DNA from: Candidatus Korarchaeum cryptofilum OPF8
GTDB taxonomy: Archaea > Korarchaeota > Korarchaeia > Korarchaeales > Korarchaeaceae
Direction of reading: 5' to 3'
Assembly (NCBI RefSeq): GCF_000019605.1
Contig: NC_010482.1
Span: 870,001-902,000, forward strand
DNA length: 32,000 nt
The notes beneath the pieces were generated by a model that worked only from the letters and a program-made list of their open reading frames with translations, did not search any database and was not told where the DNA came from. Positions 2,287 to 27,600 of this stretch are shown here, piece by piece. How positions within the stretch are numbered: position 1 is the first letter of the stretch; each line of letters starts with the position of its first letter. A program made the translations under genes and the position numbers.

Positions 2287-2457
2287 CTTCTATCCCTCAC
2301 GGAAAGGTAATCGGAATGATTACGGGGATAATAAAAAGTTAATCACTTCTCTCCGCGAGCTTTTCGGAATTTATTTACAACATTTGGGGAGAGAAATGCG
2401 AAGATTCATGCTTGATGACCCTTCACGGGGATCCTCAGCGAGCCCGCATCTCGAGAG

Positions 2458-2471
2458 GAAAAACTTTTAAG
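2458..2471 (+). promoter_or_regulatory. BRE/TATA-like promoter for the thi leader
   Basis: GAAAAACTTTTAAGG (A-rich BRE-like stretch plus CTTTTAAG) sits about 25 nt upstream of the first base of the riboswitch P1 helix (about 2493-2495). Confidence 0.5.
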
Positions 2472-2492
2472 GAGTGCCAGTCGAATGAGTTA

Positions 2493-2600
2493 GAGGGCGC
2501 CGGGGGAGCTGGGAGAAACCCGGCTGAGAGGGCAGCTTGTGCGCTGCCGACCCCCCTCGAACCTGATCCGGGTAATGCCGGCGTAGGGAGAGCGCCCTTC
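2493..2600 (+). promoter_or_regulatory. TPP (THI-box) riboswitch aptamer
   Basis: P1 is GGGCGC (2495-2500) paired with GCGCCC (2592-2597). GGGGAGC, a P3 hairpin, then an exact CUGAGA (2524-2529) and ACCCC closing P2. ACCUGAUCCGGGUAAUGCCGGCGUAGGGA (2561-2589) matches the consensus ACCUGAUCUGGAUAAUGCCAGCGUAGGGA, with compensatory CCGG/CCGG in place of CUGG/CCAG. Thiamine-salvage genes lie downstream. Confidence 0.9.
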
Positions 2601-2616
2601 TCCTTATGCTGGCCTA

Positions 2617-2650
2617 CCCCTCCCTCCGGCGTCTTCGGGAGGGGAATATG
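2617..2650 (+). promoter_or_regulatory. SD-sequestering hairpin (riboswitch expression platform) and start codon of cytX
   Basis: CCCCTCCC (2617-2624) is the perfect complement of the SD GGGAGGGG (2637-2644), which lies 3 nt before the ATG at 2648. AGGGAG of the aptamer core (2585-2590) can pair instead with CTCCCT (2620-2625). Confidence 0.6.
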
Positions 2651-3913
2651 CCTGGGAAGTTGCTGAGAGCTCCTCCTGAGTGGGGAGTTGAGCCCGTGAG
2701 TGAGGATGCGAGGATACTCAGGGCCATAGATTTCTTCTTCCTCTGGTTCAGCTTGGGAGTGGGCCTCTTAGTCCTCCAAGCCGGTGCTCTGATGATACCT
2801 TCCCTGACCATAGAGCAGGCACTCCTCATATCCCTCAGCGGCTCGATACTCGGGAGCCTCCTCCTAGCTCTTGCAGGGAGCATAGGCTCTAAGTACGGAG
2901 TACCCACCATGGTCTCCCTGAGGCCGATCTTCGGAACATACGGCTCATATTTAGCGACGATATTGAACTTCATCCAGCTAGTCGGATGGACTGCTTTCGA
3001 GCTGAAGGTCATGAGCGATTCTGCATCCCTAATCTTCGGAGGTGAGACATTCAGGATCCTCTGGCTCGTCCTCTTCTCATTCATAGTCCTGATCCTAGCG
3101 ATAGGGGGGCCCCTAGCTTTCGTGAGGAAATGGATCGAGAGGTTCGCCGTCTGGCTCGTCCTCCTCTCCACTATATGGATAACTTACCAGGCTTTCACAT
3201 CGGAGGTGAGATCCCAGGGGACCGGAGGGCTCCCTCTCACGCTCGCTTTAGATCTAGTCATAGCGATGCCCATATCCTGGATGCCCCTGGTCTCCGATTA
3301 CAACAGGTTCAGCGTGAGAGGAAGATCGAGTTTCCTGGGAACTCTCGTAGGATATACAGTAGCTAACACATGGTTCTACTTCTTAGGAGCTATTTTAGCT
3401 GCTATCTCAGGTCAGCAGTTCATAGCAGCATCTATACTAAGCTTATACCTTGGAGGAGTTGCCTTAATCGCGATATTAGTTGATGAGACCGATAACGCTT
3501 ACGCTGATGTATACTCCTCAGCGGTCTCCCTCCAGAACATATTCCCGAAGCTCAGGCAGTGGAAGATAATAGTCCCCGTTATATCGATATCAGCTGTTAT
3601 AGCCTTCTTCGTGCCCCTATCTAACTACGAGTGGTTCCTCCTCATGATAGGCGCTTCATTCATCCCCCTCTTCGGCGTCGTCATCTCCGAATACTTCCTG
3701 GTGAGGAGGAGCAATATAGAGCTCGGGGAGTTCTACGAGGGGGCCCCAAAGTTAGTTAGGAGATCGATAGCATCCTGGTTCGTAGGGCTCCTCGTCTACA
3801 GCGTCATAGCAGTATATTTCCCGGACCTCGGGGCCAGCGTGCCCTCCTTCCTCTCATCCCTGCTAGCTCAATACGCTTTGGGGAGGTGGGAGCTTGGTTT
3901 GGATAGATCTTAA
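2648..3913 (+). CDS. cytX: NCS1-family permease, CytX-like hydroxymethylpyrimidine transporter
   Basis: The track ORF is 2606..3913. The in-frame ATG at 2648 has a strong SD. About 12 TM helices. The N-terminal [17 protein letters not shown] and [12 protein letters not shown] motifs are typical of cytosine/purine/HMP permeases. It lies directly behind a TPP riboswitch and ahead of thiD. Confidence 0.8.
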
Positions 3914-5246
3914 GAGGGTCCCCGTAGCTCTCACAATAGCTGGGAGCGATTCGGGCGGAGGAGCAGGCATACAAGCGGATCTAAAGACTTTCGCAGCTCT
4001 TGGAGTTCATGGAACTGTTGCCATAACATCTATAACAGCTCAGAATACTAGGGAGGTCAGGGCCGTCCAGGATGTGAGCGTAGATGTGATTAAGGCTCAG
4101 ATAGAGGCTGTAGTTAGCGATATAGGGGTCGATGCAGCTAAAACAGGTATGCTGCATACCTCTGAGATAATAGAAGCTGTCTCAGAGGAGATAAGCAGAT
4201 ACAAAATACCCTTGGTTGTGGATCCAGTAATGATAGCGAAGAGCGGAGCTCCTCTACTTAAGGAGGATGCCGTAGGCTCTCTGATAAGGAGACTGCTCCC
4301 TGTAGCTAAAGTAGTCACGCCTAACGCTAGGGAAGCTGAGGTCCTGGCCGGCGTGAGGATAGGGAGCGTTGAGGACGCTAGGAGAGCTGCTAAACTCATA
4401 GCTGATATGGGACCGGAGGGGGTGATAGTGAAGGGAGGCCATATGGAGGGGAGCGAGAGCATCGATATCCTCTTCTACCAGGGGGATTTCATCGAGCTGA
4501 GGGCACCCAGGTTGGAGAGCAGGAACACTCACGGTACTGGATGCTCCTTCTCAGCAGCAATAACTGCGGAACTAGCTAAAGGGAAGGACATAAGGGAAGC
4601 CTTCAGGGTCGCTAAGGACCTAGTCACTCACGCTATAATGTACGGGATACCCGTTGGGAAGGGGCACGGGCCACTGAACCCAATGGCCTCCCTGTACAAT
4701 GAATCGGAGAGGTACGCTACTTTGATGAGAGTGGTTGAAGCAGTCAGGATACTCGAGGGGATAGAGGATGCGAGGAAGATAGCTCCGGAAGTGGGGATCA
4801 ATGTCGCCATGAGCCTCCCATATGCTAGGGACTCTCATGACGTTGCCGCGGTCCCGGGGAGGATCCATTTAGTGGGTAGGAAGCTTAAAGCTACTTCCTA
4901 CCCTGAGTTCGGTGCGAGCGATCACTTGGCTAGGTACATCCTCACATCTAGGCTCTACGATAGGGAGATAAGGGCCGCTATAAACATAGCTTACAGCGAT
5001 GAGAACTTGGAGAGGCTCGCGAGCATGGGGCTGAAGGTCTCTTGGTACGATAGGAGGGAGGAGCCCGGGGAAGTCAAAGCTAGGGAGGGGGCCACGATAC
5101 CCTGGGGGGTCAGGGTAGCCGTCGAGAGAGCTGGCAGAGTACCTGATGCGATATTCCACAGGGGGGACTGGGGGAAGGAGCCGATGATAGTGCTCCTAGG
5201 GAGGGATGCCGTCTCCCTAGCTGAGGTGGTGAGGTCGATAGCATGA
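3894..5246 (+). CDS. thiDN: bifunctional ThiDN: HMP/HMP-P kinase (ThiD) fused to ThiN-type thiamine-phosphate synthase
   Basis: TTG start behind GGAGGTG, overlapping cytX by 20 nt. The N-terminus [20 protein letters not shown]...VVDPVM...TPN..E...HGTGC is the ThiD hallmark. The C-terminal 180 aa ([30 protein letters not shown]...) looks like an archaeal ThiN domain. Confidence 0.9.
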
Positions 5247-5734
5247 TGAGGAAGTTAGTTACAGCTGGAGTTTTATCGGCCTTGGGCGTCGTGATATCAC
5301 CGCTGCTCTCCTTCCCAATACTTGCCTTCAAGGTGTACCCGGGGCAGCACATGATAAACGCTATCTCCGGAGTCCTCTTAGGACCTTGGTGGGCTGCTCT
5401 CATCTCCATAATAGTCGGGACGATAAGGATAGCGATGGGCACGGGAACTATCTTCGCCTATCCCGGTGGCATCCCGGGAGCTCTAGTCGTCGGCTTCTTC
5501 TCCTGGTTATTCAGGAGGCTGAGGGTGAGGAAGGAGCTAGCAGCTCTATCGGAGCCCCTCGGAACCGTCTTCATAGGGGGGACTATCGCCACCCTAATAG
5601 TGGCTCCGATGGTCGGTAGATCCATACTACTCACGGCTACATGGGTAACGTGGGCTATGAGCTCAGTCCCCGGCAGTATAGCTGGCTACTTGATCCTGGA
5701 GGGGTTGAGGAGGATTGGGATTGAGGAGATATGA
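5243..5734 (+). CDS. thiW: ThiW-like thiazole (HET) transporter, ECF S-component-like
   Basis: ATGA overlap with thiDN. 163 aa with 5-6 TM helices. YPGQHMINAISGVLLGPWWA is typical of ThiW as I recall it. Thiamine operon context. Confidence 0.75.
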   Translation: MMRKLVTAGVLSALGVVISPLLSFPILAFKVYPGQHMINAISGVLLGPWWAALISIIVGTIRIAMGTGTIFAYPGGIPGALVVGFFSWLFRRLRVRKELAALSEPLGTVFIGGTIATLIVAPMVGRSILLTATWVTWAMSSVPGSIAGYLILEGLRRIGIEEI

Positions 5735-6248
5735 GCTCCTCATAGGGAAGAAGACCCTGATAATAGGCGGAGTTGGGAGCGGGAAGACGAGGCTAACTGC
5801 TGAGATATTGAGGGGGCTCATGGACCGCATGGGGAGCCTTACCCTCATGGACTTCGCCCCCGGGAGGGGAGGAGTTGGCCTCCCCCTCTCGAGTTATATT
5901 AACATAGGTTGCGTGAGGCCCGAGGGCTTGCACGCTCCCAGGATCGAGGGGAGGGATGCTGAGGAAGTCTTAAGGTTGGCTAGGGATAATGAGGAGAAGA
6001 TAAGACCTATTTTAATTTCTTTTCTTTCGAAACCGACGGATGCTCTCGTGATAAATGATCTGACGATCTACCTGCACTCCGGGGATCTAGAACTCCTGCT
6101 GAAGTGCATCGATTCCTCCAAGACCTTCATAGGTAACGCTTATTACGGGAAGGATTTCGACGATAAGGGGAGCGGATTGAATGAGAGGGAGAGATTTTTG
6201 GTTGAGAAATTAATGAAGATGATGGATTTAGTCATAAAAATGAGCTAA
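5715..6248 (+). CDS. uncharacterised small P-loop NTPase/kinase (Walker A GGVGSGKT)
   Basis: TTG start overlapping the thiW 3' end by 20 nt. Walker A is LIIGGVGSGKTRL. A hydrophobic strand ends in D-x-x-PG (LTLMDFAPGRGG), reminiscent of Clp1/GPN-type SIMIBI NTPases. A second hhhhD strand is ALVINDLT. I cannot assign a family. Confidence 0.6.
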   Translation: MGLRRYELLIGKKTLIIGGVGSGKTRLTAEILRGLMDRMGSLTLMDFAPGRGGVGLPLSSYINIGCVRPEGLHAPRIEGRDAEEVLRLARDNEEKIRPILISFLSKPTDALVINDLTIYLHSGDLELLLKCIDSSKTFIGNAYYGKDFDDKGSGLNERERFLVEKLMKMMDLVIKMS

Positions 6249-11092: not shown

Positions 11093-11859
11093 CTCCTCCC
11101 CCTCCACGGGTATCTCACTATAATGAATATTGCGACGCTCATCAGGAAGAGGGGAAGGGCTGTAGCGCTAGCAGCTCTCAGACCATGCGTCCAGAACCTG
11201 TCCATTATGAGTACGTTTATCGATTTAGGGTAATAAGCCACTATTAGTATGGCTCCGACCTCACTGATCCCCCTCCCCCAGGAGAGCAGGGAGCCAGTGA
11301 TTATGAAGCGGAGGGAGAGTGGGAGGGTCACCTCAATGAAGGTCCTCCACTCCGAAGCCCCTAAGCTCCTAGCGACATATTCCAGATTCAAATCTATGGA
11401 GTTGAAGCCCTCTATTAAGCTGCCTATCATGATGGGAGCGGATACGAAGGCCATAACAGCCACTATACCGTAGAAGCTATCCTCGATCGTTATGCCGGCT
11501 TTAGAGAGGAGGAGCCCCACGGGGGCTCTCGAGTTATACGCCATCAGGAGCATTATACCTGCAACTCCATGCGGGATAACTAGCGGCAGATCTATGATGG
11601 CTTTTAGCAATCCCTTCCCGCGGAATTCCCTCCTGGAGAGGAAGTAAGATAGAGGGATGCCGGAGATGAGGAGGAGTGAGGTGGAGAGGAGGGAGGCCGA
11701 CACCCCTATCATCAGAGCTTCCAGTGCCGTATCATCTAGCCCGTACCTCGCAACATCTTTAGGATCGGTCCAAATAATGAAGGAGATAATCGGTATAAGT
11801 AAGAAGATGATAAGAAATGCTCCAAATATGCCGAAAGTTTTTAAAAGATTGAGCCTCAT
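11089..11859 (-). CDS. wtpB: ABC transporter permease (tungstate/molybdate type)
   Basis: 256 aa with 6 TM helices and an EAA-like loop (LEYVARSLGASEWRTFIEVTLP). It overlaps wtpA by 4 nt. Confidence 0.85.
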   Translation of the reverse strand: MRLNLLKTFGIFGAFLIIFLLIPIISFIIWTDPKDVARYGLDDTALEALMIGVSASLLSTSLLLISGIPLSYFLSRREFRGKGLLKAIIDLPLVIPHGVAGIMLLMAYNSRAPVGLLLSKAGITIEDSFYGIVAVMAFVSAPIMIGSLIEGFNSIDLNLEYVARSLGASEWRTFIEVTLPLSLRFIITGSLLSWGRGISEVGAILIVAYYPKSINVLIMDRFWTHGLRAASATALPLFLMSVAIFIIVRYPWRGRR

Positions 11860-12866
11860 CCTCCAACCTCCTTAACTATGCCCTTCAGCTCCTCAGGGAC
11901 TTTACCGTAAGCTAGAGGCGGCCTCATGGCCCTCTGACCGAGCTCCTCGAAGGTATTGAGCCCCTCAGTGAGGAGGAACTTCGTGAACTTCAAGGCCTCA
12001 TCATTCCTCGCTGCCTTAGGTATAGTGAGCCCGTAAGCTATAGCATCACCCTCTATAACCTCACCGGAGCCCAGATGGACTTTGGCACGAGAGTAGAAAT
12101 CCTTGAGCTCCGGATTTCCGAGATCTATCTCATCAGGCAGCCTTACGTAACTTAAGTTGTGCTGGATAGCTACGCTCTCATACTCGAAAGCGTAGTCCAG
12201 GACACCGGATTCCAGTAATGCCAATAGTTCAACACTCTTAGGCCTGATCACTACCTTCTCAGATCCCTGAACTGGATCGGGGACCCAAGCTTCCATCCCG
12301 CTGACCCTTATGTTCGTCCCCCTCAGAAGCTCTGAGGCTAAAGGAGATTCACTCAGATTCGATGCCAGGAGAAGGGAGATCAAGCTCCTGTATCCGCAGG
12401 GATCCCTATTGGGATCAGAGAAACCGAACTTGACTCCATCCCTCATCAGTATCCGATACCAGTTGTTCTCATTTATCTCACCAGCATATTTACTCGATTC
12501 AGTGTAAGCTATTACGAGCCTGTTGGTCGCGAAGACCACGTACCAATCAGCATGATCCGCCATTAGCTTTGGAATCAAGCTGTAATCAGCTACTAAAATC
12601 AAATCCGCATATTTCCCGAGCTCTGTAACCTTCTTTATTGCCTCTACGCTCCCGCTAGCCTCCAGCTGAAAATCCAAATCTGGATTGATTTTCCTGTAGA
12701 GCTCAGTTATCCTCTCAACGGGGATCTGGAGGGAACCTGCGAGGAATATCTTCAGCTTCTCGGGTGTTTTGCCTGAGGAAACCTCAGGAACGGATGTTAG
12801 CTTGTATGCTAGGAGAGTGATTGAGATGAATAGCAGGATCAGGAGGTAGTACTTACCGCGACCCAT
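11856..12866 (-). CDS. wtpA: WtpA-type tungstate/molybdate substrate-binding protein
   Basis: Close resemblance to archaeal WtpA as I recall it: LKIFLAGSL, EASGSVEAIKKVTELGKYADLILVADYSLIPKLM, NWYRIL...VKFGFSDPNRDPCGYRS, LDYAFEYESVA. There is an N-terminal signal/anchor. I prefer the ATG at 12866, which follows GGGGAG. The track start is 12878. Confidence 0.88.
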   Translation of the reverse strand: MGRGKYYLLILLFISITLLAYKLTSVPEVSSGKTPEKLKIFLAGSLQIPVERITELYRKINPDLDFQLEASGSVEAIKKVTELGKYADLILVADYSLIPKLMADHADWYVVFATNRLVIAYTESSKYAGEINENNWYRILMRDGVKFGFSDPNRDPCGYRSLISLLLASNLSESPLASELLRGTNIRVSGMEAWVPDPVQGSEKVVIRPKSVELLALLESGVLDYAFEYESVAIQHNLSYVRLPDEIDLGNPELKDFYSRAKVHLGSGEVIEGDAIAYGLTIPKAARNDEALKFTKFLLTEGLNTFEELGQRAMRPPLAYGKVPEELKGIVKEVGG

Positions 12867-12877
12867 GCGACTCCCCA

Positions 12878-12895
12878 TTATTCGTTAATGAATAA
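12878..12895. promoter_or_regulatory. 18-bp near-perfect palindrome (candidate operator) between the TATA box and the wtpA start
   Basis: TTATTCGTTAATGAATAA, with 8 of 9 positions symmetric. It lies between the minus-strand TATA (TTTTTATAG, 12903-12911) and the wtpA SD/ATG. Confidence 0.45.
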
Positions 12896-15035: not shown

Positions 15036-16328
15036 TCAACCCCCTATCTCCCCCAGGCTCTCATCCATTATCTGGACGGCCCTCTCCACCTCCTCCTTGC
15101 TCACGGTGAGAGGGGGCGCGAACCTCACGACGTTCCCATACCACCCGCTAGTCGCGAGTAATAATCCCCTCTTCAGAGCTTTATCGAAGCAGAGCTGAGC
15201 TGTCTCCTCCCTAGCTGGCTTTTTACTCTCCTTATCCTTGACCAATTCTATTCCCAGCATGAGTCCCTTCCCCCTAACATCCCCAACAAATTTCCTCCTC
15301 TCCTTCAGCTCATTGAGGAGCTTAAGAGCGTACTCACCGACTTCCCTCACGTTCCTGAGTATAGCTTCCTTATTTTCGATGAAATGCGATAGAGTAGCAT
15401 CGGCTGCAGCCATAACTAATGGTGGAGCTGCATAAGTAGAGTGCTCATCCCCGGGCTCCATAGAAGCTGCTATCTCCTCTCTCGTCACTACAGCAGCTAA
15501 AGGCAGGCCCCCAGTCATCCCCTTCGCCACTACGACTATATCTGGGACTACGTTAAGGGCCTCGAACCTCCAAGTAGTTCCGGTCCTCCCCATCCCGGTC
15601 TGTATCTCATCGAATATCAGGAGGGAGTTGTTCTCCCTCAGTATAGAGGCCAGTTTAGGAAAGAAGCCATCCTCAGGGTAGATTATCCCACCAACTCCCT
15701 GTATTGGCTCTATTATGAGAGCTGCATAATCCCTATTCCCTGAGAACTTCAGATAGTAATCTATCAATTGTAAGATGGAATCAGAGCAGCTCTCGCAACT
15801 ATCTGCCTTCACTGGACATCTATAGCAGTAAGGATACGGTACATAGCTCATTCCAGGGATTAATGGGGCGAACTCCTTCTTCCTAGATCCATGGAATGTT
15901 AGAGTCCCCGAGGTCCTCCCATGGTAGGATCCCATTGTCACTAAAACTTCCTGCCTCTTCGTGAACTTCCTAGCGAGCTTCAAAGCAAGCTCTACTGCTT
16001 CGCCTCCTCCGGGCTTGAATGCCACTCTATTTAGCTCCCTCGGGAAGAGGGATAGGAGCTTCTCGGATGCCCTAAGTAAGTACTCGGAGTAGTAGACGTA
16101 GGAGCCCCCCGCTATAAGGTTCTCAGCTGCTTCCTTTATCGCTTCAACGAGGTAATCCGGGTTATGGCCTAGGTAGGCTGTGGTTATCACCGTCATGAAA
16201 TCCATATATCTTTTCCCATCAACGTCCTCCACATAAATGCCTTTCGCCTTTTTTACCACGATCCTATGCGTCTTAAATAAGTTCGTCATGAGAGAGGAAT
16301 CCAATCTCCTCAACATGTCCTCCTGCAT
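15036..16328 (-). CDS. class-III PLP-dependent aminotransferase (acetylornithine / 4-aminobutyrate aminotransferase family)
   Basis: GSYHGRT, LIFDEIQTGMGRTG, VVAKGMTGGLPL (PLP-binding Lys). 430 aa. Confidence 0.9.
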   Translation of the reverse strand: MQEDMLRRLDSSLMTNLFKTHRIVVKKAKGIYVEDVDGKRYMDFMTVITTAYLGHNPDYLVEAIKEAAENLIAGGSYVYYSEYLLRASEKLLSLFPRELNRVAFKPGGGEAVELALKLARKFTKRQEVLVTMGSYHGRTSGTLTFHGSRKKEFAPLIPGMSYVPYPYCYRCPVKADSCESCSDSILQLIDYYLKFSGNRDYAALIIEPIQGVGGIIYPEDGFFPKLASILRENNSLLIFDEIQTGMGRTGTTWRFEALNVVPDIVVVAKGMTGGLPLAAVVTREEIAASMEPGDEHSTYAAPPLVMAAADATLSHFIENKEAILRNVREVGEYALKLLNELKERRKFVGDVRGKGLMLGIELVKDKESKKPAREETAQLCFDKALKRGLLLATSGWYGNVVRFAPPLTVSKEEVERAVQIMDESLGEIGG

Positions 16329-16465: not shown

Positions 16466-17629
16466 GTGATGACTCCGATGCTCAAAGATCGGGAGAGAAA
16501 GTTCCAGATACTCAGGGACTCCATGTTCTCACTGAGCTTCGATATGGGCGGACTCATAGCCGGAGGCCTCCTGGAGAGTTTTTCCGGGCTCGCTCTGAGG
16601 ACCGGTTGGAGCATAGCTCTCTATCCGATAGTCCTCACTGGCAGAGGGGCTTTGAACGGGATAGAGGCGGCCAGGATAAGCACTGGCCTCCACCTGGGGA
16701 CCGTGAAGCCCACTTTCAGGGGGAACACTAAATATTATTACTCGATATTGGCATCGATGGTGACGCTCTCCCTATTAATGAGCCTCCTCATGGGATCCCT
16801 CGCCTTCATATTCTCCGGAGCTACTTTAGAGGAGCTTCCAATCATCTTATCCACAGCGATATCCTCGCAGACCATAGCCATTATTTTGATAGTGCCTGCC
16901 ACATCATTAGCTGGCCATGAATCCTTCAAGAGGGGTCTGGATCCCGATGCCGTGGTTTATCCGATATCATCCACGGTAGCTGATATATGGGCGACTATCT
17001 CCTACATCATAGCCCTCACAATAGCTTTCGGCCCCTCGATCATCAATCATATAATAGCATCAGCCACCGTTATATTCACTCTCTTAGTGATAGTGATCTT
17101 CTCTAGGGAGGAGGAGTTCAGGAGGACCATCAGGGAGTCTTTCCCTACAGTGGCCTCTGTGACTCTAATATCCAGCATCTCGGGGTTCTCACTCTCCTCG
17201 GCTAGGAAGAGGATAGAGGAAACTCCCGGGATCCTAACGATATATCCAGCGATAATAGATACCTTGGGTGATTGCGGCGCTATATTCGGATCTACCTCAA
17301 CTACTAAGTTATTCACCGGTTTGATGGAACCTTCCCTCAGCGAGATATCATCTAGAATTAATGAGTTAGCTCAGATATGGATCGCTGGTCTCATATACTA
17401 CTTCCTATACGCTATTATAGGCTTCTCAGTGGGAGGGAGCCTGAGGTCATTCGCTATACCCCTGCTAGTCTACTCGATCCTCTTCCCCCTAATATCCTTA
17501 TTCACCTTCTCCCTGGCGATAGTAGCTTTCAGGAAGGGGCTGAATCCGGATAACTTCATAATACCCCTGGAGACCACTATGACTGACACTATCACGACGG
17601 TAATGCTTTCAGCAATCCTCTCGGTCTAG
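16466..17629 (+). CDS. divalent-cation transporter with two MgtE-type membrane domains (SLC41-like), no cytosolic CBS/N domain
   Basis: Two repeats, each ending in the MgtE-like motif: LDPDAVVYPISSTVADIWATISYI and LNPDNFIIPLETTMTDTITTVML. About 10 TM helices. Confidence 0.75.
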   Translation: MMTPMLKDRERKFQILRDSMFSLSFDMGGLIAGGLLESFSGLALRTGWSIALYPIVLTGRGALNGIEAARISTGLHLGTVKPTFRGNTKYYYSILASMVTLSLLMSLLMGSLAFIFSGATLEELPIILSTAISSQTIAIILIVPATSLAGHESFKRGLDPDAVVYPISSTVADIWATISYIIALTIAFGPSIINHIIASATVIFTLLVIVIFSREEEFRRTIRESFPTVASVTLISSISGFSLSSARKRIEETPGILTIYPAIIDTLGDCGAIFGSTSTTKLFTGLMEPSLSEISSRINELAQIWIAGLIYYFLYAIIGFSVGGSLRSFAIPLLVYSILFPLISLFTFSLAIVAFRKGLNPDNFIIPLETTMTDTITTVMLSAILSV

Positions 17630-19104
17630 ATGCCCGAGCAACCGCCATCACCTCTCAAATCAGCGCAACCTATCCTCAATCCATCCCCCCTCATGCAAGT
17701 GAGAGCGGCCACGCCGAGCCTCGATGGATACCTCCTCAAATCAACTTTCACACCGCTCCCAATCTCCAGCCCCTCCTCAGCGACTAGAATCCCCTTTGAG
17801 AGATCGAAATAAGCCCTAGGGAAGTCTAAGGCTTCCCTTAGGTCCATGCCGAATTTGAATATGTTCGTAGAGAGCCACCAGTGTATCTGAGGCCTGTAAT
17901 GACCACCAGAAGTTCCTATGACATACCAATCATCATCTAACTCAAAGATAAGGGAGGATAGCGTGTGTAAAGTCCTCTTTCCAGGTTCAAGCCTGTTCAC
18001 ATGATCTTCTTTCAACGAGAAGCTCGATGCCCTGCAGTTAAGCGTTATCTGATAGTTAGGCTCAGTTACTCCGGAGCCGAAAGCATAGAATATACTCTGA
18101 ATCCCAGCTACCATCATACCATCTCGATCTATCACGCTGAAGAAAGTGGTGTCCCCATCATCCATCCTCCCCGGAGCTGCGCCTTCGAGCGAGGAGGGAT
18201 GGAGCAGCTCCTCAACCCTCACCCCCATGAACTTAGGATCCGTCAAATACCTGTCCCTTATGCTGTAAGCTCTCTCAGATATCTCTATCAGCTTCCTCAA
18301 CCTGCTCCAGGATCTTGGGCCATCTAAAGCTTCGGTGAGCATCATCATGTGCAGAGTCGTTATCCCCTGAGTCGGAGGGGGCATCTCGTACGCCACTCCT
18401 CCCCAGATGCGAGCTGATATCGGTCTCCCCTCCCCCGCCCTGTATTCAGATAGGTCCTCGATTGAGAGCAGACCTCCCCTCTTCCTGACATAGCTAACGA
18501 TCTTCTGAGCTATCTCTCCCTCATAAAATTCTCTAGGATCCTCTGAAATTATTTCTAGGGCCCTAGCGAGCCCTTTAAAATTATGCCTAGATCCAGTCGC
18601 CCCTATGCTGAGGTATGTTGATGAAGACCCCTCGTCGGATGATAAGAGCTCTCTATTCGACTTGACAGCTTCCGAAAGGCTTTTGCTCACTGGAAATCCT
18701 TTTTCAGCGAGCTTCACGACTCTCGAGACTAAGGAGCTCCACTCCATACTTCCGTAGAGCTTCCACATGAGGTGTAAAGCATCCAAGTAACCCGGTACTG
18801 TTATCGAGAGGGGTCCCCTCTCCGGCATCTCATTGAATCCCCTTCTGAATAACTCATCCCTGCTCAACTCATAGGGGGAAGGGCCAGCTCCATCTATGAA
18901 CTTGATCTCCTCCCCCCTCTTCACTAGGGCGAAGAAATCCCCTCCCAACCCGCTGAGGTGAGGGAGGAGTACTGAGAGAGCTAGGGAGGCTACTACAGAT
19001 GCATCTACGGCATTTCCCCCATCCCTCAGGACTTCAGCCGCTACAGTAGATGCTAGATAATGTTCAGAGGCGACGACGCTATCGTAAGTCATGAAGGGAT
19101 GCAT
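17626..19104 (-). CDS. ggt: gamma-glutamyltransferase (Ntn hydrolase)
   Basis: GGNAVDA, LSGLGGDFF, the nucleophile region DDGDTTFFSVIDRDGMMVAGIQSI, and TSGG. 492 aa. Confidence 0.9.
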   Translation of the reverse strand: MHPFMTYDSVVASEHYLASTVAAEVLRDGGNAVDASVVASLALSVLLPHLSGLGGDFFALVKRGEEIKFIDGAGPSPYELSRDELFRRGFNEMPERGPLSITVPGYLDALHLMWKLYGSMEWSSLVSRVVKLAEKGFPVSKSLSEAVKSNRELLSSDEGSSSTYLSIGATGSRHNFKGLARALEIISEDPREFYEGEIAQKIVSYVRKRGGLLSIEDLSEYRAGEGRPISARIWGGVAYEMPPPTQGITTLHMMMLTEALDGPRSWSRLRKLIEISERAYSIRDRYLTDPKFMGVRVEELLHPSSLEGAAPGRMDDGDTTFFSVIDRDGMMVAGIQSIFYAFGSGVTEPNYQITLNCRASSFSLKEDHVNRLEPGKRTLHTLSSLIFELDDDWYVIGTSGGHYRPQIHWWLSTNIFKFGMDLREALDFPRAYFDLSKGILVAEEGLEIGSGVKVDLRRYPSRLGVAALTCMRGDGLRIGCADLRGDGGCSGI

Positions 19105-19143: not shown

Positions 19144-20157
19144 TCACTTCCTCGGGGGATCCTCCATGAGGCTCTTGACTAGCTTCAGAGAGTTCTCTAT
19201 ATCGCTGACTTTAGCTAGGGCTTGAGGCGAATGTATATACCTGGCCGGGACTGAGATCACTCCTACAGCTACCCCATCCCCGCTCAAGCTTATAGGCGCA
19301 GCATCCGTGCTGCTCACCGGGGATAGCTGGAGCTGGTAGGGGATCCCTAATCCTTCAGCTCTAGCTATAATCGATTCCAGTAGCCATCCCTTGACTATCA
19401 ATCCCCTATCCATCACCCTTATCGCCGGCCCCTTCCCCAGTTGAGTTATATAGTTGTACTCCTGGACCTCGGGTACATCCGATGCTATAGTACCCTCCAA
19501 GACGAAGGCAAGGTCTGGCCTCACTCTATTGGCCGCTACTTGGGCGCCCCTGAGCCCCCTCTCCTCCTCGCAAGTGAAAACAGCATATATTTTTTCACCA
19601 GGTTCCACGCTCTTCAATGCCTCAGCGAGCAGGAAGCATCCTAATCTATCGTCCAATGCCTTCCCAATTAAAGACCCTGTCTCGGGTTGATATATGAACG
19701 GAGAATCGAAGGTTATTAGAGTGCCCGGCCTTATCCCGAGGCTCCTAGCCTCCTCTCCGCTGGAAGCACCCACATCCACGTAAAGCTCATCCATCTTAGG
19801 GATCTTCTCCTCACCCATGTGAGCTGGAAGAGTGCCCACTATTCCCCTGAGCTTCACTTTCCCGTGAACAACTACCCTCTGAGCGACTAATTGCGATGGG
19901 CTGAGGCCTCCAAGGGCTACTACTCTGAGGAAGCCCCTCTCATCTATATGCCTCACCATCATGGCCACTTCATCCATGTGAGCCGCGAACATCACTTTCC
20001 TCCCGCTCCCCTTCACAGCGTATAAGTTCCCGAACCCGTCCTCTTGGAGCTCATCTACTCTGCCCTCTAGCTCCTCCTTCAAGATCTCCCTGACCTCATC
20101 CTCAAAACCCGGCGGAGCAGATGCTAGGGAAAGCCTCTCCAGGAGCTTCAAATCCAT
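19144..20157 (-). CDS. M42-family (TET/FrvX-type) aminopeptidase
   Basis: APPGFEDEVR, FAAHMDEV, GKALDDRLGC, FTCEEERGLRGA, RYIHSP. These are the typical M42 metal-ligand blocks. Confidence 0.9.
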   Translation of the reverse strand: MDLKLLERLSLASAPPGFEDEVREILKEELEGRVDELQEDGFGNLYAVKGSGRKVMFAAHMDEVAMMVRHIDERGFLRVVALGGLSPSQLVAQRVVVHGKVKLRGIVGTLPAHMGEEKIPKMDELYVDVGASSGEEARSLGIRPGTLITFDSPFIYQPETGSLIGKALDDRLGCFLLAEALKSVEPGEKIYAVFTCEEERGLRGAQVAANRVRPDLAFVLEGTIASDVPEVQEYNYITQLGKGPAIRVMDRGLIVKGWLLESIIARAEGLGIPYQLQLSPVSSTDAAPISLSGDGVAVGVISVPARYIHSPQALAKVSDIENSLKLVKSLMEDPPRK

Positions 20158-24611: not shown

Positions 24612-27600
24612 ATGAAACTGGAAGGTCTCTACTTCCCGTTGGGCGCCTGCCTAATATCGATGATAATCATAAGCTTCCTCCTGAACCTGGGAATATATGA
24701 GATCCCGCTGCTAGCTATACCATTGCTCTCCCTCCTCTTCCTCCTCTCCGATCGAGCTCTCAAAATTAGGGTACCGAGGTTGGAGCTCATACTGGCCTTG
24801 ATACCTCAGATGTTCTTGCCTCTCTCCCTCCTCTCCCCGCCACCACTTAACGCGATCTCCTGCATGATCTTCCTATTCTTAATGTTCTTGCCTCTCTCCC
24901 CCCTGATCTCCAAAGATCTATGGGAAGCCCTAAGCTTATCCGCAGCTATGGGAGGTCTCTTCATCTCCCTCCTCTTTGCTATAAATTTCCTGTATAGGAT
25001 CCCAATATTTGAAATAATAGTTATAATTTCCGTATCCATGAGCATAATTTCAATATATTTATCCACTAAGAGGAAAATTTTTGTGGAAAATGAGTTCAAG
25101 CTGAACGGTTATCATGCGTTGATCTCGATACTCTCAGCTTTCTTCCTCCTGGAGCTCGCTCTAGCCTACCCTAACATATTCAGATACATTACGAACGACC
25201 TCCTCTATCACCAAGATCAAGCATGGTACCTCGCGAATTTCCCCTCCAAATACGATGCTTGGAATTACTTAGGCTACAACTCCCTCCTCGGAGCTATTTA
25301 CCTGATAACTAAGGCTGATGTTCTCAGCCTGATGCTCACAGTAGTAGCGATAAACCTCTTCTCATTCCTAATAGTGGCTTCATCATTCTCGAAGCTCGAG
25401 TGGAGGAAGGAATCCCTATTCGCGTGGTCCCTCCTGACTGGCCTGGGTTGGATAGCCGCCCTGAAGTTTGGGACGGATTACAACGGGCTGGATAAAGCTA
25501 ATGAGGCATCTTACAGATCGCTCATATGGAGCCAGCCCATATTCTTCTGGGGGCTCCCCCTAACTTTAGCTATAGCCTTGCTGGCTTTCCTCCTCTACTC
25601 CGATATATTCGTAGAGGGGAGGAGGAAGATCTTCATAATATTCGTCCTGAGCACCCTCACCTTCCTCGTCCACGTAGCGGAATCCCTCCTCTTCGTAGCC
25701 TATCTTTCCCTGGCTTCCCTAATATTCGGGAAGAGGAGGGAATCTTCAATAGCTGTCCTCCTCTCTGGAGCATCGGTTTACCTGCTCTCATTCATCCACG
25801 GACCACCATCCATTTACGGGGGGCCCGGCCTCTACTTCCTGACCTCCCCGATCCCCCTCCTCCTGAACGAGCTCAGGAGGTTCCTGAGGGTCGAGAGGTT
25901 AATAGGGCTGATGAGCTCCAAGCGCGACATTATAATCTCTATACTGATGGCACTCTTCGCATCCGGCCTGATAGTATGGATCCTGCATTTAGGGGAGATT
26001 AAAGTCAGCGAGATATACTACATAGGGCAGGTCCCCTGGTTCTTCTATCCAGCTCTCCTCGGAGTCTCTGGGCTCTTAGGAATAGCCTCCCTTAAGATCC
26101 TGCGTGAGCCCCTCCATAATTACGCTCTCTTCGCACTCGCCTGCTTGATCTTGGGCAGGTTGATAACTTACGTTAAGATCTCGGGCTTCATGATAAACTA
26201 CTGGGAATACAGATTCCCGCTTTACGCCTTACTGGGAGTCTCAGTCCTATCCTCACCGATAATAAGAATACTAGTCAGGAGGAGGGATTCGAAGCTCTAC
26301 GCTTTAATTTTGGCTTTGATACTCTTCTCGGGATTCTCATCGACAGCTTTAAGCGTCCAGAGGTGGAATCAGCTGAACGTAACTGCTTCAGGCTCTATCC
26401 TTCCGGCAGATTTCGATTTCGCTGTAAAATTCAAGGGCGAAAATGATGCTACTATGCTCCTTCTCTCCTATTACTCCAGCGCTGTCTCCTCCTTGATGCA
26501 TAGTAATAGTATGAGGCAATTGGCCCCCTGGATCTCTGAGGGACCTGAAATTCCTCTCCTCATCCTCTACGAGCTAGCTGGGAAGCGGAATTTATCTGTC
26601 CTGACGACTATGGGGGATGTGGCTATCCTGAACGGGGAGAACTCCACTTACAACTATCTATTCATGTTCATGGGACCCATATTATCCGCTCCTTCAGTAG
26701 AGAGGATCGAGATAGGGAATCCAGCTCTCCCTAATGCGACGCTCCCCATAATAATGCCTTCCGACGTATACTTCAGGAGGAGGAGCTTAATAGCTTACGA
26801 GCTGATGAGGGATGAGCTCCCATTCCACACTATCTACTTGAGCGATGATCCGAGGGCTCCCAGTGGGATTTACATAGGGCCCAGCTCATCGAATCAGAGC
26901 GTTGAGGAGGAGCTACCTTCGGATAAAGGTGATCTGAGGTGGCTCTACTTGAGGGGCGACTTCTCGCCGGATGAGACCGGGATAAGGGTGAGGGGATCTA
27001 GGAACCTAGCTATAACTACTTACGAGCTCGATAAGGGAGAGTTCAAGCTTAAGGTCTGCGGGGAAGGCGGTTACGTGGGGATAATTTACGATTTCAAGAA
27101 CTTCGCGAACTACAGGATCTTCCAGCTCTACCTAGATAGTGGGACAGCTGTGAATAGAATAATCAGGGGGAGGAACGTTTCATCAGGCCCCTCCTTCATC
27201 GTCCCCTTGGGTTGGGAGTGCAATGAACTGGAGCTGAGGCTCGGGAAGGAGCTAGAGGCTGTGGTTAATGGGAGGGCCATAAAGCTCCCGGGAGTCGAGA
27301 AGCTGGGAGTCCTGGGATTCGAGACGGGGAACTTCACCGGTGTAATAAGCGGGAAAGCCTCAGGTTACCACAGCTTAGAATGGAATCCTAAGAATGGATC
27401 TATCCTCATAGGGGTCTCGGGAGGTGGGATAGATATCAAGGACTGGGTTGATAGGGGCTTGAGGAACCTCTCCGATGCTAAGAAGCACTTCCCAGGGTTG
27501 AAGCTCGATCTGAAGTCCGAATATCAGGAGGTGCCAAGGATAGAGGCTGTAATCACGGGATTGGAGGCATCTGGGAAAATTAGAGTAATAGGCAGGCCAA

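What the first reader, a model, noticed from the sequence alone, without database searches (positions are those of the whole stretch)
2458..2650. TPP riboswitch with a thiM-like SD-sequestering switch in front of an archaeal thiamine-salvage operon
**Aptamer.** The leader carries all invariant THI-box blocks:
- GGGGAGC
- CUGAGA at 2524-2529
- ACCUGAUCCGGGUAAUGCCGGCGUAGGGA at 2561-2589
- a 6-bp P1 helix, 2495-2500 paired with 2592-2597

A TATA-like box sits about 25 nt upstream of P1.

**Expression platform.**
- CCCCUCCC (2617-2624) is perfectly complementary to the SD GGGAGGGG (2637-2644), which lies 3 nt before the ATG at 2648.
- The same C-rich strand (CUCCCU, 2620-2625) can pair instead with AGGGAG (2585-2590) of the aptamer core.
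- That is the mutually exclusive pairing logic known from E. coli thiM: ligand-bound aptamer leaves the anti-SD free, the SD is masked, and translation is off.

**Why it matters.** Riboswitches are rare in Archaea. A translational, SD-based platform is notable in a lineage where many mRNAs are leaderless.
Basis: partly seen in the sequence, partly recalled or inferred. Interest (0 to 1): 0.7.

Follow-up and report, generated by a model that had tools for sequence, protein, structure and literature searches.

The report
Korarchaeal TPP riboswitch masking the ribosome site

Summary
Rfam RF00059 (TPP) matches window 2492-2607 at 71.4 bits, against a gathering score of 54.3. The genes downstream are cytX, thiD-thiN, thiW and a conserved unknown P-loop gene.

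The hairpin that hides the Shine-Dalgarno (SD) sequence is conserved in 19 related Korarchaeia-type leaders, so an OFF switch acting on translation is the best reading.

The proposed partner swap (AGGGAG 2585-2590 with CUCCCU 2620-2625) does not hold in relatives. Two other helices are conserved:
- **Aptamer 3' half.** 2577-2592 pairs with an invariant decoy, CUCCUUA, within 2598-2613.
- **Transcript 5' end.** The 5' strands of P1 and P2 (2493-2506) pair with the 3' part of the anti-SD plus the hairpin loop (2623-2636). This is 14 bp.

Two positions of the 5' strand change together with both of their partners, the P1 3' strand and the loop. At 80 C the predicted unpaired fraction of the SD core is at most 0.23 with P1 closed and at least 0.70 with the long-range helix formed.

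TPP riboswitches in Archaea, and one riboswitch in Korarchaeota, are already on record. I also found TPP aptamers before cytX in Bathyarchaeia and Hadarchaeota. This is a new member of a known class with an unusual, testable expression platform. Nothing has been tested experimentally.

The parts
2453..2472 (+). Putative archaeal promoter: a purine-rich BRE-like stretch (GAGAGGAAAAA) and a TATA-like box, CTTTTAAG, at 2464-2471. The predicted transcription start is about 2493-2495, at the first bases of P1.
   Evidence: Read directly. An AAAA(C)TTTTAAG-type block is conserved in the relatives. About 20-23 nt separate its 3' end from the 5' strand of P1 in most full-length leaders. The start site is inferred from the usual archaeal TATA-to-start distance (my own knowledge) and has not been mapped.
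2493..2599 (+). TPP (THI-box) aptamer, from P1 to P1. Its helices are:
- P1: 2493-2500 with 2592-2599
- P2: 2502-2505 with 2553-2556
- P3: 2508-2513 with 2519-2524
- P3a: 2531-2536 with 2543-2548
- P4: 2562-2565 with 2584-2587
- P5: 2568-2571 with 2578-2581
   Evidence: Rfam RF00059 gives 71.4 bits over 2492-2607. RNAalifold on 12 full-length relatives predicts this fold de novo. P1 has 2 compensatory pairs and P3a has 1; all other pairs are invariant or change on one side only. 97.5% of cells are paired, compared with 43-60% for slid controls.
2493..2506 (+). S5: the 5' strands of P1 and P2, GAGGGCGCCGGGGG. This is the proposed anti-anti-SD. In the ligand-free fold it pairs with 2623-2636.
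   Evidence: It forms this helix in the unconstrained MFE of the window. The 14-bp helix is present in all 16 full-length leaders at -25 to -29 kcal/mol. 97.4% of cells are paired, with 2 compensatory pairs (AU:7/CG:6 and GC:8/AU:6) and 4 GU<->GC pairs. In the window, 7 of 2000 shuffles do as well.
2577..2592 (+). A: the 3' half of the aptamer, GCCGGCGUAGGGAGAG. It comprises the P5 and P4 3' strands, the GGGAG core and the first base of the P1 3' strand. In the ligand-free fold it pairs with 2598-2613.
   Evidence: It forms a 16-bp hairpin in the window MFE. RNAalifold on 19 leaders predicts it. 93.6% of cells are paired and the inner 8 bp are invariant or change on one side only. 0 of 2000 shuffles do as well.
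2598..2613 (+). B: a decoy, or anti-aptamer, strand UUCUCCUUAUGCUGGC. Its UCCUUA core (2601-2606) is invariant. It captures the aptamer 3' half when TPP is absent.
   Evidence: UCCUUA is identical in all 19 leaders although it is non-coding. The ATG at 2606 inside it is not a conserved start: it is absent in L006 and L009, and it is out of frame in L002.
2617..2629 (+). C: the anti-SD, CCCCUCCCUCCGG. It has two registers in the window. 2617-2624 forms a perfect 8 bp with 2637-2644. The register homologous to the relatives is 2621-2629 with 2636-2644.
   Evidence: Read directly. CCCUCC is invariant in 19 leaders. The hairpin has 90.6% of cells paired, 4 pairs with one-sided changes and no compensatory change. 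RNAalifold predicts it.
2623..2636 (+). SL: the 3' part of the anti-SD plus the hairpin loop, CCUCCGGCGUCUUC. It mimics the P2 and P1 3' strands. It is the target of S5 in the ligand-free fold.
   Evidence: The loop letters change together with the P1 5' strand. A2494 pairs with U2635 in the window clade, and this becomes C-G in the second clade. G2499 pairs with C2630, and this becomes A-U. The same two 5' positions also covary with the P1 3' strand.
2637..2644 (+). D: the Shine-Dalgarno sequence GGGAGGGG, with GGAGG core at 2638-2642. There are 5 nt between the core and the ATG.
   Evidence: Read directly. GGAGGG is conserved in all leaders. Other operon-internal genes in the window carry GGAGGTG-type SDs. 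At 80 C the predicted unpaired probability of the core is 0.014 with P1 forced and 0.82 with S5:SL forced.
2648..3913 (+). cytX: an NCS1-family putative hydroxymethylpyrimidine permease of 421 aa. The start is ATG 2648, not the in-frame ATG 2606.
   Evidence: Pfam PF02133. NCBIfam TIGR02358 thia_cytX scores 292 bits, just below its 309.85 cut-off. The homologues are 418-423 aa long and align from this start.
3894..5246 (+). thiD-thiN fusion: HMP/HMP-P kinase joined to ThiN-type thiamine-phosphate synthase.
   Evidence: Pfam PF08543 and PF10120. NCBIfam NF006346 scores 624.7 bits, above its cut-off. The SD GGGAGGTG lies about 12 nt upstream.
5243..5734 (+). thiW: the ECF-type S component for the thiazole precursor.
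   Evidence: Pfam PF09512. NCBIfam TIGR02359 scores 137 bits, above its cut-off.
5715..6248 (+). Fourth gene of the operon: an uncharacterised 177-aa P-loop protein with a GxxGSGKT motif.
   Evidence: It has no Pfam, NCBIfam or PDB sequence match. It is conserved at the same position after cytX-thiDN-thiW in 27 other archaeal loci. The AlphaFold model has pLDDT 92, but only generic RecA/ASCE P-loop structural neighbours.

Best explanation
A TPP-sensing riboswitch at the very 5' end of the cytX-thiDN-thiW mRNA of a Korarchaeia archaeon represses translation when TPP is abundant.

**TPP-bound fold (OFF).** The aptamer closes P1 (2493-2500 with 2592-2599). The C-rich anti-SD (2617-2629) is then free to form a local hairpin with the SD GGGAGGGG (2637-2644), and initiation at ATG 2648 is blocked.

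**TPP-free fold (ON).** Two strand exchanges occur together.
- The invariant decoy CUCCUUAUGCUGGC (2598-2613) captures the aptamer 3' half (2577-2592).
- The released 5' strand of P1+P2 (2493-2506) pairs with the hairpin loop and the 3' part of the anti-SD (2623-2636).
- The loop can act as a single-stranded toehold.
- The anti-SD is held away and the SD is exposed.

**Shown by computation.** This covers the aptamer identity, the conservation of all three platform helices, compensatory changes in the long-range helix, and the predicted SD accessibility in each fold.

**Inferred.** This covers TPP binding, the transcription start, the order of folding, the toehold role of the loop, and the actual effect on translation.
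For: **Aptamer and gene context.**
- Rfam TPP scores 71.4 bits in the window and 63-77 bits in 13 related loci.
- The operon content is a thiamine-salvage set.

**OFF fold.**
- RNAalifold predicts it de novo from 12 full-length leaders.
- 97.5% of cells are paired.

**ON fold.**
- It is the unconstrained MFE of the window and of several relatives.
- The long-range helix has 14 bp with 97.4% of cells paired. Two pairs are compensatory and four alternate between GU and GC.
- Controls with the 3' partner slid by 1-3 columns give 40-52% of cells paired for the whole ON structure, compared with 96.6%.
- The two variable 5' positions (A2494, G2499) covary with both the P1 3' strand and the loop.
- In all 16 full-length leaders the best platform partner of the 5' strand is the same site abutting GGAGGG.

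**Decoy helix.**
- The UCCUUA core is invariant and RNAalifold predicts the helix.

**Energetics and accessibility.**
- Without a ligand term, the ON fold is 1.6-12 kcal/mol more stable than the P1-closed fold at 37 C. At 80 C the difference runs from 0.3 kcal/mol the other way up to 9 kcal/mol. This holds across 14 leaders. It is what an OFF riboswitch needs if ligand binding is to tip the balance.
- The SD core is unpaired at 0.00-0.23 with P1 forced and at 0.70-0.98 with the long-range helix forced, at 80 C in all 14 leaders.

**Other support.**
- There is no T-run in the leader. Bacterial cytX orthologues carry a TPP aptamer followed by classical hairpin-T-run terminators.
- The aptamer has 67% G+C in a roughly 50% G+C window.
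Against: - There are no experimental data of any kind.
- The relatives fall into two clades. The compensatory changes therefore represent only about 2-3 independent events. The shuffle control does not correct for relatedness.
- The SD hairpin itself shows no compensatory change, because its 3' strand is fixed by its SD function.
- RNAalifold never returns the long-range helix as the consensus. It gives aptamer + hairpin or decoy helix + hairpin. A ligand-free state with the SD still masked is therefore a real competitor.
- In L005 the unconstrained ensemble keeps the SD paired (0.04-0.08 unpaired).
- In the window clade the extra upstream CCCCU (2617-2621) could still pair with part of the SD in a pseudoknot. 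Nested-structure prediction ignores this.
- The energy parameters are extrapolated to 80 C and omit TPP, Mg2+ and tertiary contacts.
- The 16S anti-SD of this organism was not available.
Confidence: 0.68

Rival explanations
1. Without TPP, the aptamer core AGGGAG (2585-2590) pairs with CUCCCU (2620-2625) of the anti-SD and so frees the SD. With TPP, this core is locked in the aptamer and the anti-SD masks the SD.
For: The 6-bp complementarity exists in the window. Four of its pairs, AGGG with CCCU, are possible in every relative because both strands are invariant. In E. coli thiM the anti-anti-SD does lie in the 3' part of the aptamer (PMC2018614).
Against: The outer two pairs fail in 10 of 16 and 4 of 12 relatives, and nothing covaries. 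AGGGAG has a nearer and far stronger partner: a 16-bp helix with the invariant UCCUUA core, which 0 of 2000 shuffles match. The helix never appears in MFE or consensus folds. The model leaves unexplained both the invariant decoy and the covariation between the loop and the P1 5' strand.
Confidence: 0.1
2. The SD hairpin is constitutive. In this model the ligand-free state is decoy helix plus SD hairpin, and TPP acts at another level. Candidates are transcription elongation or termination, or mRNA stability via exposure of the single-stranded decoy segment or of the 5' end.
For: RNAalifold on 19 leaders gives exactly decoy helix + SD hairpin. In some relatives (L005, L007, L009) the unconstrained ensemble at 37 C keeps the SD mostly paired. 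How archaeal riboswitches act has, to my knowledge, not been settled experimentally.
Against: The leader has no oligo-T tract to serve as an archaeal termination signal. The model does not explain why the hairpin loop tracks the P1 5' strand through compensatory changes. The long-range fold is predicted to be equal to or more stable than the P1-closed fold in all 14 leaders.
Confidence: 0.15
3. The aptamer is real, but the platform helices are by-products of a G/C-tract-rich leader and close relatedness. In this model regulation works through simple steric occlusion, or the element is decaying.
For: The local fold energy of 2598-2660 is no better than shuffles (z = -0.03). The eight leaders of the window clade are nearly identical, so much of the conservation could reflect recent common ancestry.
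Against: Upstream of the TATA box and in the first codons the same leaders differ widely, while the platform blocks stay fixed. The CytX proteins of the two clades share only 64-67% identity, yet UCCUUA, CCCUCC and the complementarity of the loop are all kept. Duplex energies exceed composition-matched shuffles.
Confidence: 0.05

Closest known systems
E. coli thiM TPP riboswitch (translational OFF switch)
   Same: - It has the same aptamer class (RF00059) and the same logic: the TPP-bound aptamer lets an anti-SD mask the SD.
- The refined thiM model also has a ligand-free extended helix between the 3' half of the aptamer (the P4/P5 side) and the platform (PMC2018614). This resembles the 2577-2592/2598-2613 helix here.
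   Different: - In thiM a single platform strand serves as both anti-SD and aptamer competitor, and the anti-anti-SD is nt 83-86 in the P1 3' strand.
- Here the two roles are split. A separate decoy takes the aptamer 3' half. The anti-SD is neutralised by the 5' strands of P1/P2, about 120 nt upstream, which pair into the loop of the SD hairpin.
- The host here is an archaeon, and the leader begins at P1.
TPP riboswitches previously recorded in Archaea
   Same: They are an archaeal host carrying a TPP aptamer ahead of thiamine transport or salvage genes. THI elements were first reported in Thermoplasmatales by Rodionov and colleagues in 2002 (my own knowledge). The 2017 census counts 79 riboswitches in Euryarchaeota, 6 in Crenarchaeota, and 1 each in Korarchaeota and Thaumarchaeota (PMC5473149).
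   Different: No paper in the held library describes the expression platform of a korarchaeal TPP riboswitch or comparative support for its two folds. I could not establish whether the single korarchaeal riboswitch of the census is this locus.
TPP riboswitches before cytX in Bathyarchaeia and Hadarchaeota
   Same: They have the same aptamer class above the Rfam gathering score (65-78 bits) and an orthologous downstream gene, cytX. Often the same cytX-thiDN-thiW-P-loop gene order follows.
   Different: The platforms are unrelated and A/U-rich. In five loci the start codon directly follows the P1 3' strand. In those loci the aptamer core reads CGGAGGGA, so the SD lies inside the aptamer. Others have a distal UUUUGGAGGUG SD. 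They have no decoy, C-rich anti-SD or loop mimic of the korarchaeal type.
Bacterial TPP riboswitches before cytX (Anaerolineae, Thermoflexus, Chloroflexus)
   Same: They have the same aptamer class and a closely related CytX (46-51% identity).
   Different: Their platforms are classical intrinsic terminators, a G+C-rich hairpin followed by a T-run. The korarchaeal leader has no T-run and instead masks its SD.

Membership tests
TPP riboswitch aptamer (Rfam RF00059, THI element) | Covariance-model score at or above the curated gathering score | tested here: met
   71.4 bits against 54.3, E = 2.3e-12, full model 1-105. Thirteen related loci score 63-77 bits.
TPP riboswitch aptamer (Rfam RF00059, THI element) | Conserved core blocks: CUGAGA, ACCUGAUC..GG.UAAU.CC.GCG, and AGGGA | tested here: met
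   Present at 2524-2529 and 2561-2589. They match the consensus in the cmscan alignment.
TPP riboswitch aptamer (Rfam RF00059, THI element) | Helices P1-P5 supported by relatives | tested here: met
   RNAalifold recovers P1, P2, P3, P3a, P4 and P5. P1 has 2 compensatory pairs and P3a has 1. The rest never vary, which says nothing for or against them.
TPP riboswitch aptamer (Rfam RF00059, THI element) | Location in the 5' leader of thiamine biosynthesis, salvage or transport genes | tested here: met
   It lies 41 nt upstream of cytX, which is followed by thiDN and thiW. The same arrangement occurs in the relatives.
TPP riboswitch aptamer (Rfam RF00059, THI element) | Selective binding of thiamine pyrophosphate | not testable with these tools
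   This needs in-line probing, ITC or a similar method.
SD-sequestering (thiM-type) translational expression platform | SD base-paired to an anti-SD when P1 is closed | tested here: met
   An 8-bp perfect complement exists in the window. The hairpin is conserved in 19 leaders with 90.6% of cells paired. The SD core is unpaired at no more than 0.04 at 37 C and no more than 0.23 at 80 C with P1 forced. These are predictions only.
SD-sequestering (thiM-type) translational expression platform | Anti-SD has an alternative partner inside the aptamer, mutually exclusive with P1 | tested here: met
   It is met by the 5' strand of P1/P2 (2493-2506) pairing with 2623-2636, with compensatory changes.
   Only 4 invariant pairs hold. 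The outer pairs fail in 10 of 16 and 4 of 12 sequences, and there is no covariation.
SD-sequestering (thiM-type) translational expression platform | The masked sequence is a functional SD for this organism's ribosome | tested here: inconclusive
   There is no 16S rRNA in the window. Operon-internal genes in the window carry GGAGGTG-type motifs 6-12 nt before their starts, which is consistent with SD use.
SD-sequestering (thiM-type) translational expression platform | TPP-dependent repression of translation initiation | not testable with these tools
   This needs toeprinting or a reporter fusion.

The most novel reading that the evidence does not exclude
Korarchaeia use a platform design not described for TPP riboswitches. 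It is a coupled double strand exchange. A dedicated decoy removes the aptamer 3' half. The extreme 5' end of the mRNA, the P1/P2 5' strands, invades the loop of the SD hairpin, which mimics the P1 3' strand, and strips the anti-SD from the SD. If this is right, it would be the first archaeal riboswitch in which both conformers have comparative support. It would also give a defined model for how riboswitches control translation in a hyperthermophile whose first genes are mostly leaderless.
Probability: 0.5. Interest if true: 0.55.

Novelty: new member of a known kind. Interest (0 to 1): 0.45.

Why it matters
How archaeal riboswitches control expression is, to my knowledge, not established experimentally. 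This leader gives a concrete model that can be falsified.
- **Defined switching strands.** The three are 2493-2506, 2598-2613 and 2623-2636.
- **Clear mutant predictions.** Each strand can be altered separately and the effect on regulation predicted.
- **A natural three-way comparison.** The same aptamer and the same gene use SD masking in Korarchaeia, an SD inside the aptamer in some Bathyarchaeia, and terminators in Chloroflexota.
- **A new candidate gene.** The riboswitch marks a conserved, unannotated P-loop gene as part of the archaeal thiamine-salvage regulon.

The aptamer class, the gene context and SD masking as a principle are all ordinary.

Tried and rejected
- **Local fold energy.** The MFE of 2598-2660 is no better than shuffles. 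Fold energy alone cannot support the hairpin.
- **Upstream ATG 2606 as the true start or a uORF.** I rejected this. L006 and L009 have ACC there, L002 is out of frame, and the homologues are 418-423 aa long.
- **Freed decoy pairing with the first codons in the bound state.** The idea was that this would extend the hairpin over the AUG. Predicted AUG accessibility changes in inconsistent directions among relatives, so I did not pursue it.
- **RNAalifold on the 19-sequence alignment with truncated leaders.** This returned decoy helix + hairpin rather than the aptamer. With full-length leaders only it returned the aptamer. It never returned the long-range helix as the consensus.
- **Transcription termination.** The leader has no T-run.
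- **Literature.**
  - Seven searches found no description of a korarchaeal or bathyarchaeal TPP platform.
  - One further search was badly set and returned nothing useful.
  - The 2017 ThiR paper by Rodionov and colleagues is not held.
  - No supplements of the 2017 census are held.
- **The 177-aa P-loop protein.** There are no Pfam, NCBIfam or PDB sequence hits. Foldseek gives only generic RecA/ASCE neighbours at TM about 0.5.
- **More leaders.** Several extra contigs end inside the aptamer and gave only partial leaders.
Full report
**Observation.**
- GGGGAGC is at 2503-2509 and CUGAGA at 2524-2529.
- The 29-nt block ACCUGAUCCGGGUAAUGCCGGCGUAGGGA is at 2561-2589.
- P1 is 2495-2500 with 2592-2597, and can be extended to 8 bp.
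- An A/T-rich TATA-like box lies at 2464-2471.
- CCCCUCCC 2617-2624 is exactly complementary to GGGAGGGG 2637-2644.
- The ATG is at 2648.

Rfam RF00059 (TPP) matches 2492-2607 with 71.4 bits, against a gathering score of 54.3 (E = 2.3e-12). It is the only Rfam hit in the window. The aptamer has 67% G+C in a window of about 50% G+C.

**Context.** Four genes follow the leader:
- a CytX-type NCS1 permease, 2648-3913;
- a ThiD-ThiN fusion, 3894-5246;
- ThiW, 5243-5734;
- a 177-aa P-loop protein with no family assignment, 5715-6248.

The closest CytX homologues are from Korarchaeota/Korarchaeum MAGs at 78-91% identity. More distant ones come from other Thermoproteota, Aigarchaeota/Caldarchaeales and Bathyarchaeia. 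CytX homologues are 418-423 aa long. The start is therefore ATG 2648, not the in-frame ATG 2606.

In this window, first genes of transcription units mostly have an A/T-rich box 25-30 nt before the ATG and no SD. Operon-internal genes carry GGAGGTG-type SDs.

**Relatives.** I collected leaders from genome and metagenome contigs that encode close CytX relatives.
- 19 leaders are aligned in A3.
- 16 leaders in all are full length. Two of them, L110 and L113, were fetched after A3 was built.
- They form two clades whose CytX proteins share about 64-67% identity.
- All thirteen loci scanned with Rfam have a TPP hit of 63-77 bits.
- A BRE/TATA-like block lies about 20-23 nt upstream of the 5' strand of P1 in most of them.

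From the usual archaeal TATA-to-start distance (my own knowledge), the transcript should begin at the first bases of P1. This has not been mapped.

**Conserved platform blocks.** Beyond the aptamer, three non-coding blocks are invariant:
- UCCUUA, 2601-2606;
- CCCUCC, 2622-2627;
- GGAGGG, the SD.

**The bound fold.** RNAalifold on 12 full-length leaders predicts the canonical TPP aptamer plus the anti-SD/SD hairpin, with no prior input. Pair counting gives 97.5% paired cells, compared with 43-60% for slid controls. P1 has two compensatory pairs and P3a has one. The SD hairpin has 90.6% of cells paired, with only one-sided changes. That is expected, because its 3' strand is fixed by its SD function.

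In the window clade a short duplication, CCCCUCCCUCC, gives two registers. The other is the register homologous to the relatives, 2621-2629 with 2636-2644.

In relatives only the four invariant pairs survive. The outer pairs fail in 10 of 16 and 4 of 12 sequences, and nothing covaries. Unconstrained folding of the window gives a different structure made of two helices.

*First helix.* The aptamer 3' half GCCGGCGUAGGGAGAG (2577-2592) pairs with UUCUCCUUAUGCUGGC (2598-2613).
- It has 16 bp, and the invariant UCCUUA lies at its centre.
- 93.6% of cells are paired across relatives.
- RNAalifold predicts it on the 19-sequence set.
- 0 of 2000 composition-matched shuffles reach its energy.

*Second helix.* The 5' strands of P1 and P2, GAGGGCGCCGGGGG (2493-2506), pair with CCUCCGGCGUCUUC (2623-2636). 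That target is the 3' part of the anti-SD plus the loop of the SD hairpin.
- The helix has 14 bp.
- In all 16 full-length leaders it is the best duplex the 5' strand can form with the platform. It scores -25 to -29 kcal/mol and always abuts GGAGGG.
- 97.4% of its cells are paired.
- A2494-U2635 in one clade becomes C-G in the other. G2499-C2630 becomes A-U, and L005 and L007 differ at this pair within one clade.
- Four further pairs alternate between G-U and G-C.

The same two 5' positions also covary with the P1 3' strand. The hairpin loop therefore tracks the P1 5' strand just as the true P1 3' strand does. This three-way covariation is the strongest evidence that the long-range helix is selected.

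**Function of the two folds.**

| Condition | SD core (GGAGG) unpaired, 80 C | Source |
|---|---|---|
| P1 forced | 0.00-0.23 | |
| Long-range helix forced | 0.70-0.98 | |

These figures hold for all 14 leaders tested. At 37 C with P1 forced the unpaired fraction is at most 0.04.

Without any ligand term, the long-range fold is more stable than the P1-closed fold by 1.6-12 kcal/mol at 37 C. At 80 C the difference runs from 0.3 kcal/mol the other way up to 9 kcal/mol. An OFF switch needs this arrangement if TPP binding is to tip the balance.

The most likely mechanism is therefore a coupled double strand exchange:
- without TPP, the decoy takes the aptamer 3' half;
- the freed 5' end then pairs with the loop and the anti-SD;
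- the SD is open and cytX is translated;
- with TPP, the aptamer holds both strands, the hairpin forms and initiation is blocked.

The toehold role of the loop and the co-transcriptional order are inference.

**Limits.**
- There are only about 2-3 independent compensatory events.
- The shuffle control does not remove relatedness.
- RNAalifold never returns the long-range helix as the consensus.
- In L005 the unconstrained ensemble keeps the SD paired.
- In the window clade, 2617-2621 could still contact the SD through a pseudoknot that these tools do not model.
- The energy parameters at 80 C are extrapolated and ignore TPP, Mg2+ and tertiary structure.
- A state with the decoy helix and the SD hairpin both formed, and hence regulation at another level, cannot be excluded. 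It would, however, leave the loop covariation unexplained, and the leader has no T-run to act as a terminator.

**Comparison with known systems.** In E. coli thiM the anti-anti-SD is nt 83-86 in the P1 3' strand. A refined model has an extended ligand-free helix between the aptamer 3' half and the platform (PMC2018614). The korarchaeal decoy helix resembles that extended helix. Here, though, the anti-SD is a separate strand and is neutralised by the 5' strand of P1/P2.

TPP riboswitches in Archaea are on record, and a 2017 census lists one riboswitch in Korarchaeota (PMC5473149). The held literature has nothing on this platform.

Rfam also finds TPP aptamers before cytX in 12 Bathyarchaeia loci and one Hadarchaeota locus, at 65-78 bits. 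Their platforms are unrelated. In five of them the start codon follows the P1 3' strand directly and the aptamer core reads CGGAGGGA, so the SD lies inside the aptamer. Bacterial cytX orthologues in Anaerolineae, Thermoflexus and Chloroflexus have the aptamer followed by classical hairpin-T-run terminators. One aptamer class and one gene family thus carry three different platforms.

**Verdict.** The aptamer, the operon, the SD-masking hairpin and the OFF logic hold. The proposed anti-anti-SD pairing does not, and it is replaced by a better-supported pair of helices. I file this as a new member of a known class, the TPP riboswitch with translational SD masking, carrying an unusual platform that can be tested directly. 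Interest is moderate, at 0.45.

Noticed in passing
window 5715-6248 (+): A 177-aa P-loop protein (GxxGSGKT) is the fourth gene after cytX-thiDN-thiW. It has no Pfam, NCBIfam or PDB sequence match. It sits at the same position in 27 other archaeal cytX loci, including Korarchaeia, Thermofilaceae and Bathyarchaeia, at 38-85% identity. All 78 database homologues are unnamed, and one (P0166, 267 aa) also carries a ThiW domain. The AlphaFold model has pLDDT 92, but Foldseek finds only generic RecA/ASCE neighbours such as Rho, FlaH and TK1-type thymidine kinase, at TM about 0.5. It could be a missing kinase of archaeal thiamine salvage; this is speculation.
   Followed up: partly
L056 4864-4976, L063 4870-4982, L045 4870-4982, L050 3820-3932, L040 4876-4991 (Bathyarchaeia): These TPP aptamers, above the Rfam gathering score, lie directly before cytX. 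The aptamer core reads CGGAGGGA instead of CGUAGGGA, and a GTG or ATG start follows the P1 3' strand 7 nt later. The SD therefore seems to be part of the aptamer itself, with no separate platform.
   Followed up: partly
L020 4836-4947 (Hadarchaeota); L027, L043, L049, L051, L052, L057 (Bathyarchaeia): These loci also have TPP aptamers before cytX, but with A/U-rich platforms of about 60 nt that end in UUUUGGAGGUG. No TPP aptamer was found before cytX in L010 and L012 (Rfam). A loose motif scan also found none in most Aigarchaeota/Caldarchaeales loci.
   Followed up: partly
L053, L058, L060, L067, L070, L072, L073, L075, L076, L079, L080 (Chloroflexota): Bacterial cytX orthologues, at 46-51% identity to the window protein, carry a TPP aptamer followed by a G+C-rich hairpin and a T-run, that is, a terminator platform. 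Such a close CytX in Chloroflexota and in TACK archaea hints at horizontal transfer of the gene, possibly together with its aptamer.
   Followed up: no
L004, L100, L101, L106, L107, L108, L111, L112 (5' ends): Eight Korarchaeia-type contigs end inside or just before the TPP aptamer. This may mean that near-identical aptamer copies, elsewhere in the genome or among co-occurring strains, break the assemblies.
   Followed up: no
window 15036-16328 (-), 24612-28070 (+), 28184-29386 (+), 17626-19104 (-), 11856-12878 (-): These apparent first genes have an A/T-rich TATA-like box about 25-30 nt before the ATG and no SD, so they look leaderless. Operon-internal genes such as 3894, 5243, 19144-20157 (-) and 23621 carry GGAGGTG-type SDs.
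   Followed up: partly
L102-L105 (the L009-type locus): In this lineage the riboswitch-controlled cytX is not followed by thiDN-thiW. It is followed by a 219-222-aa protein without a Pfam hit, so the content of the regulated unit varies among relatives.
   Followed up: no
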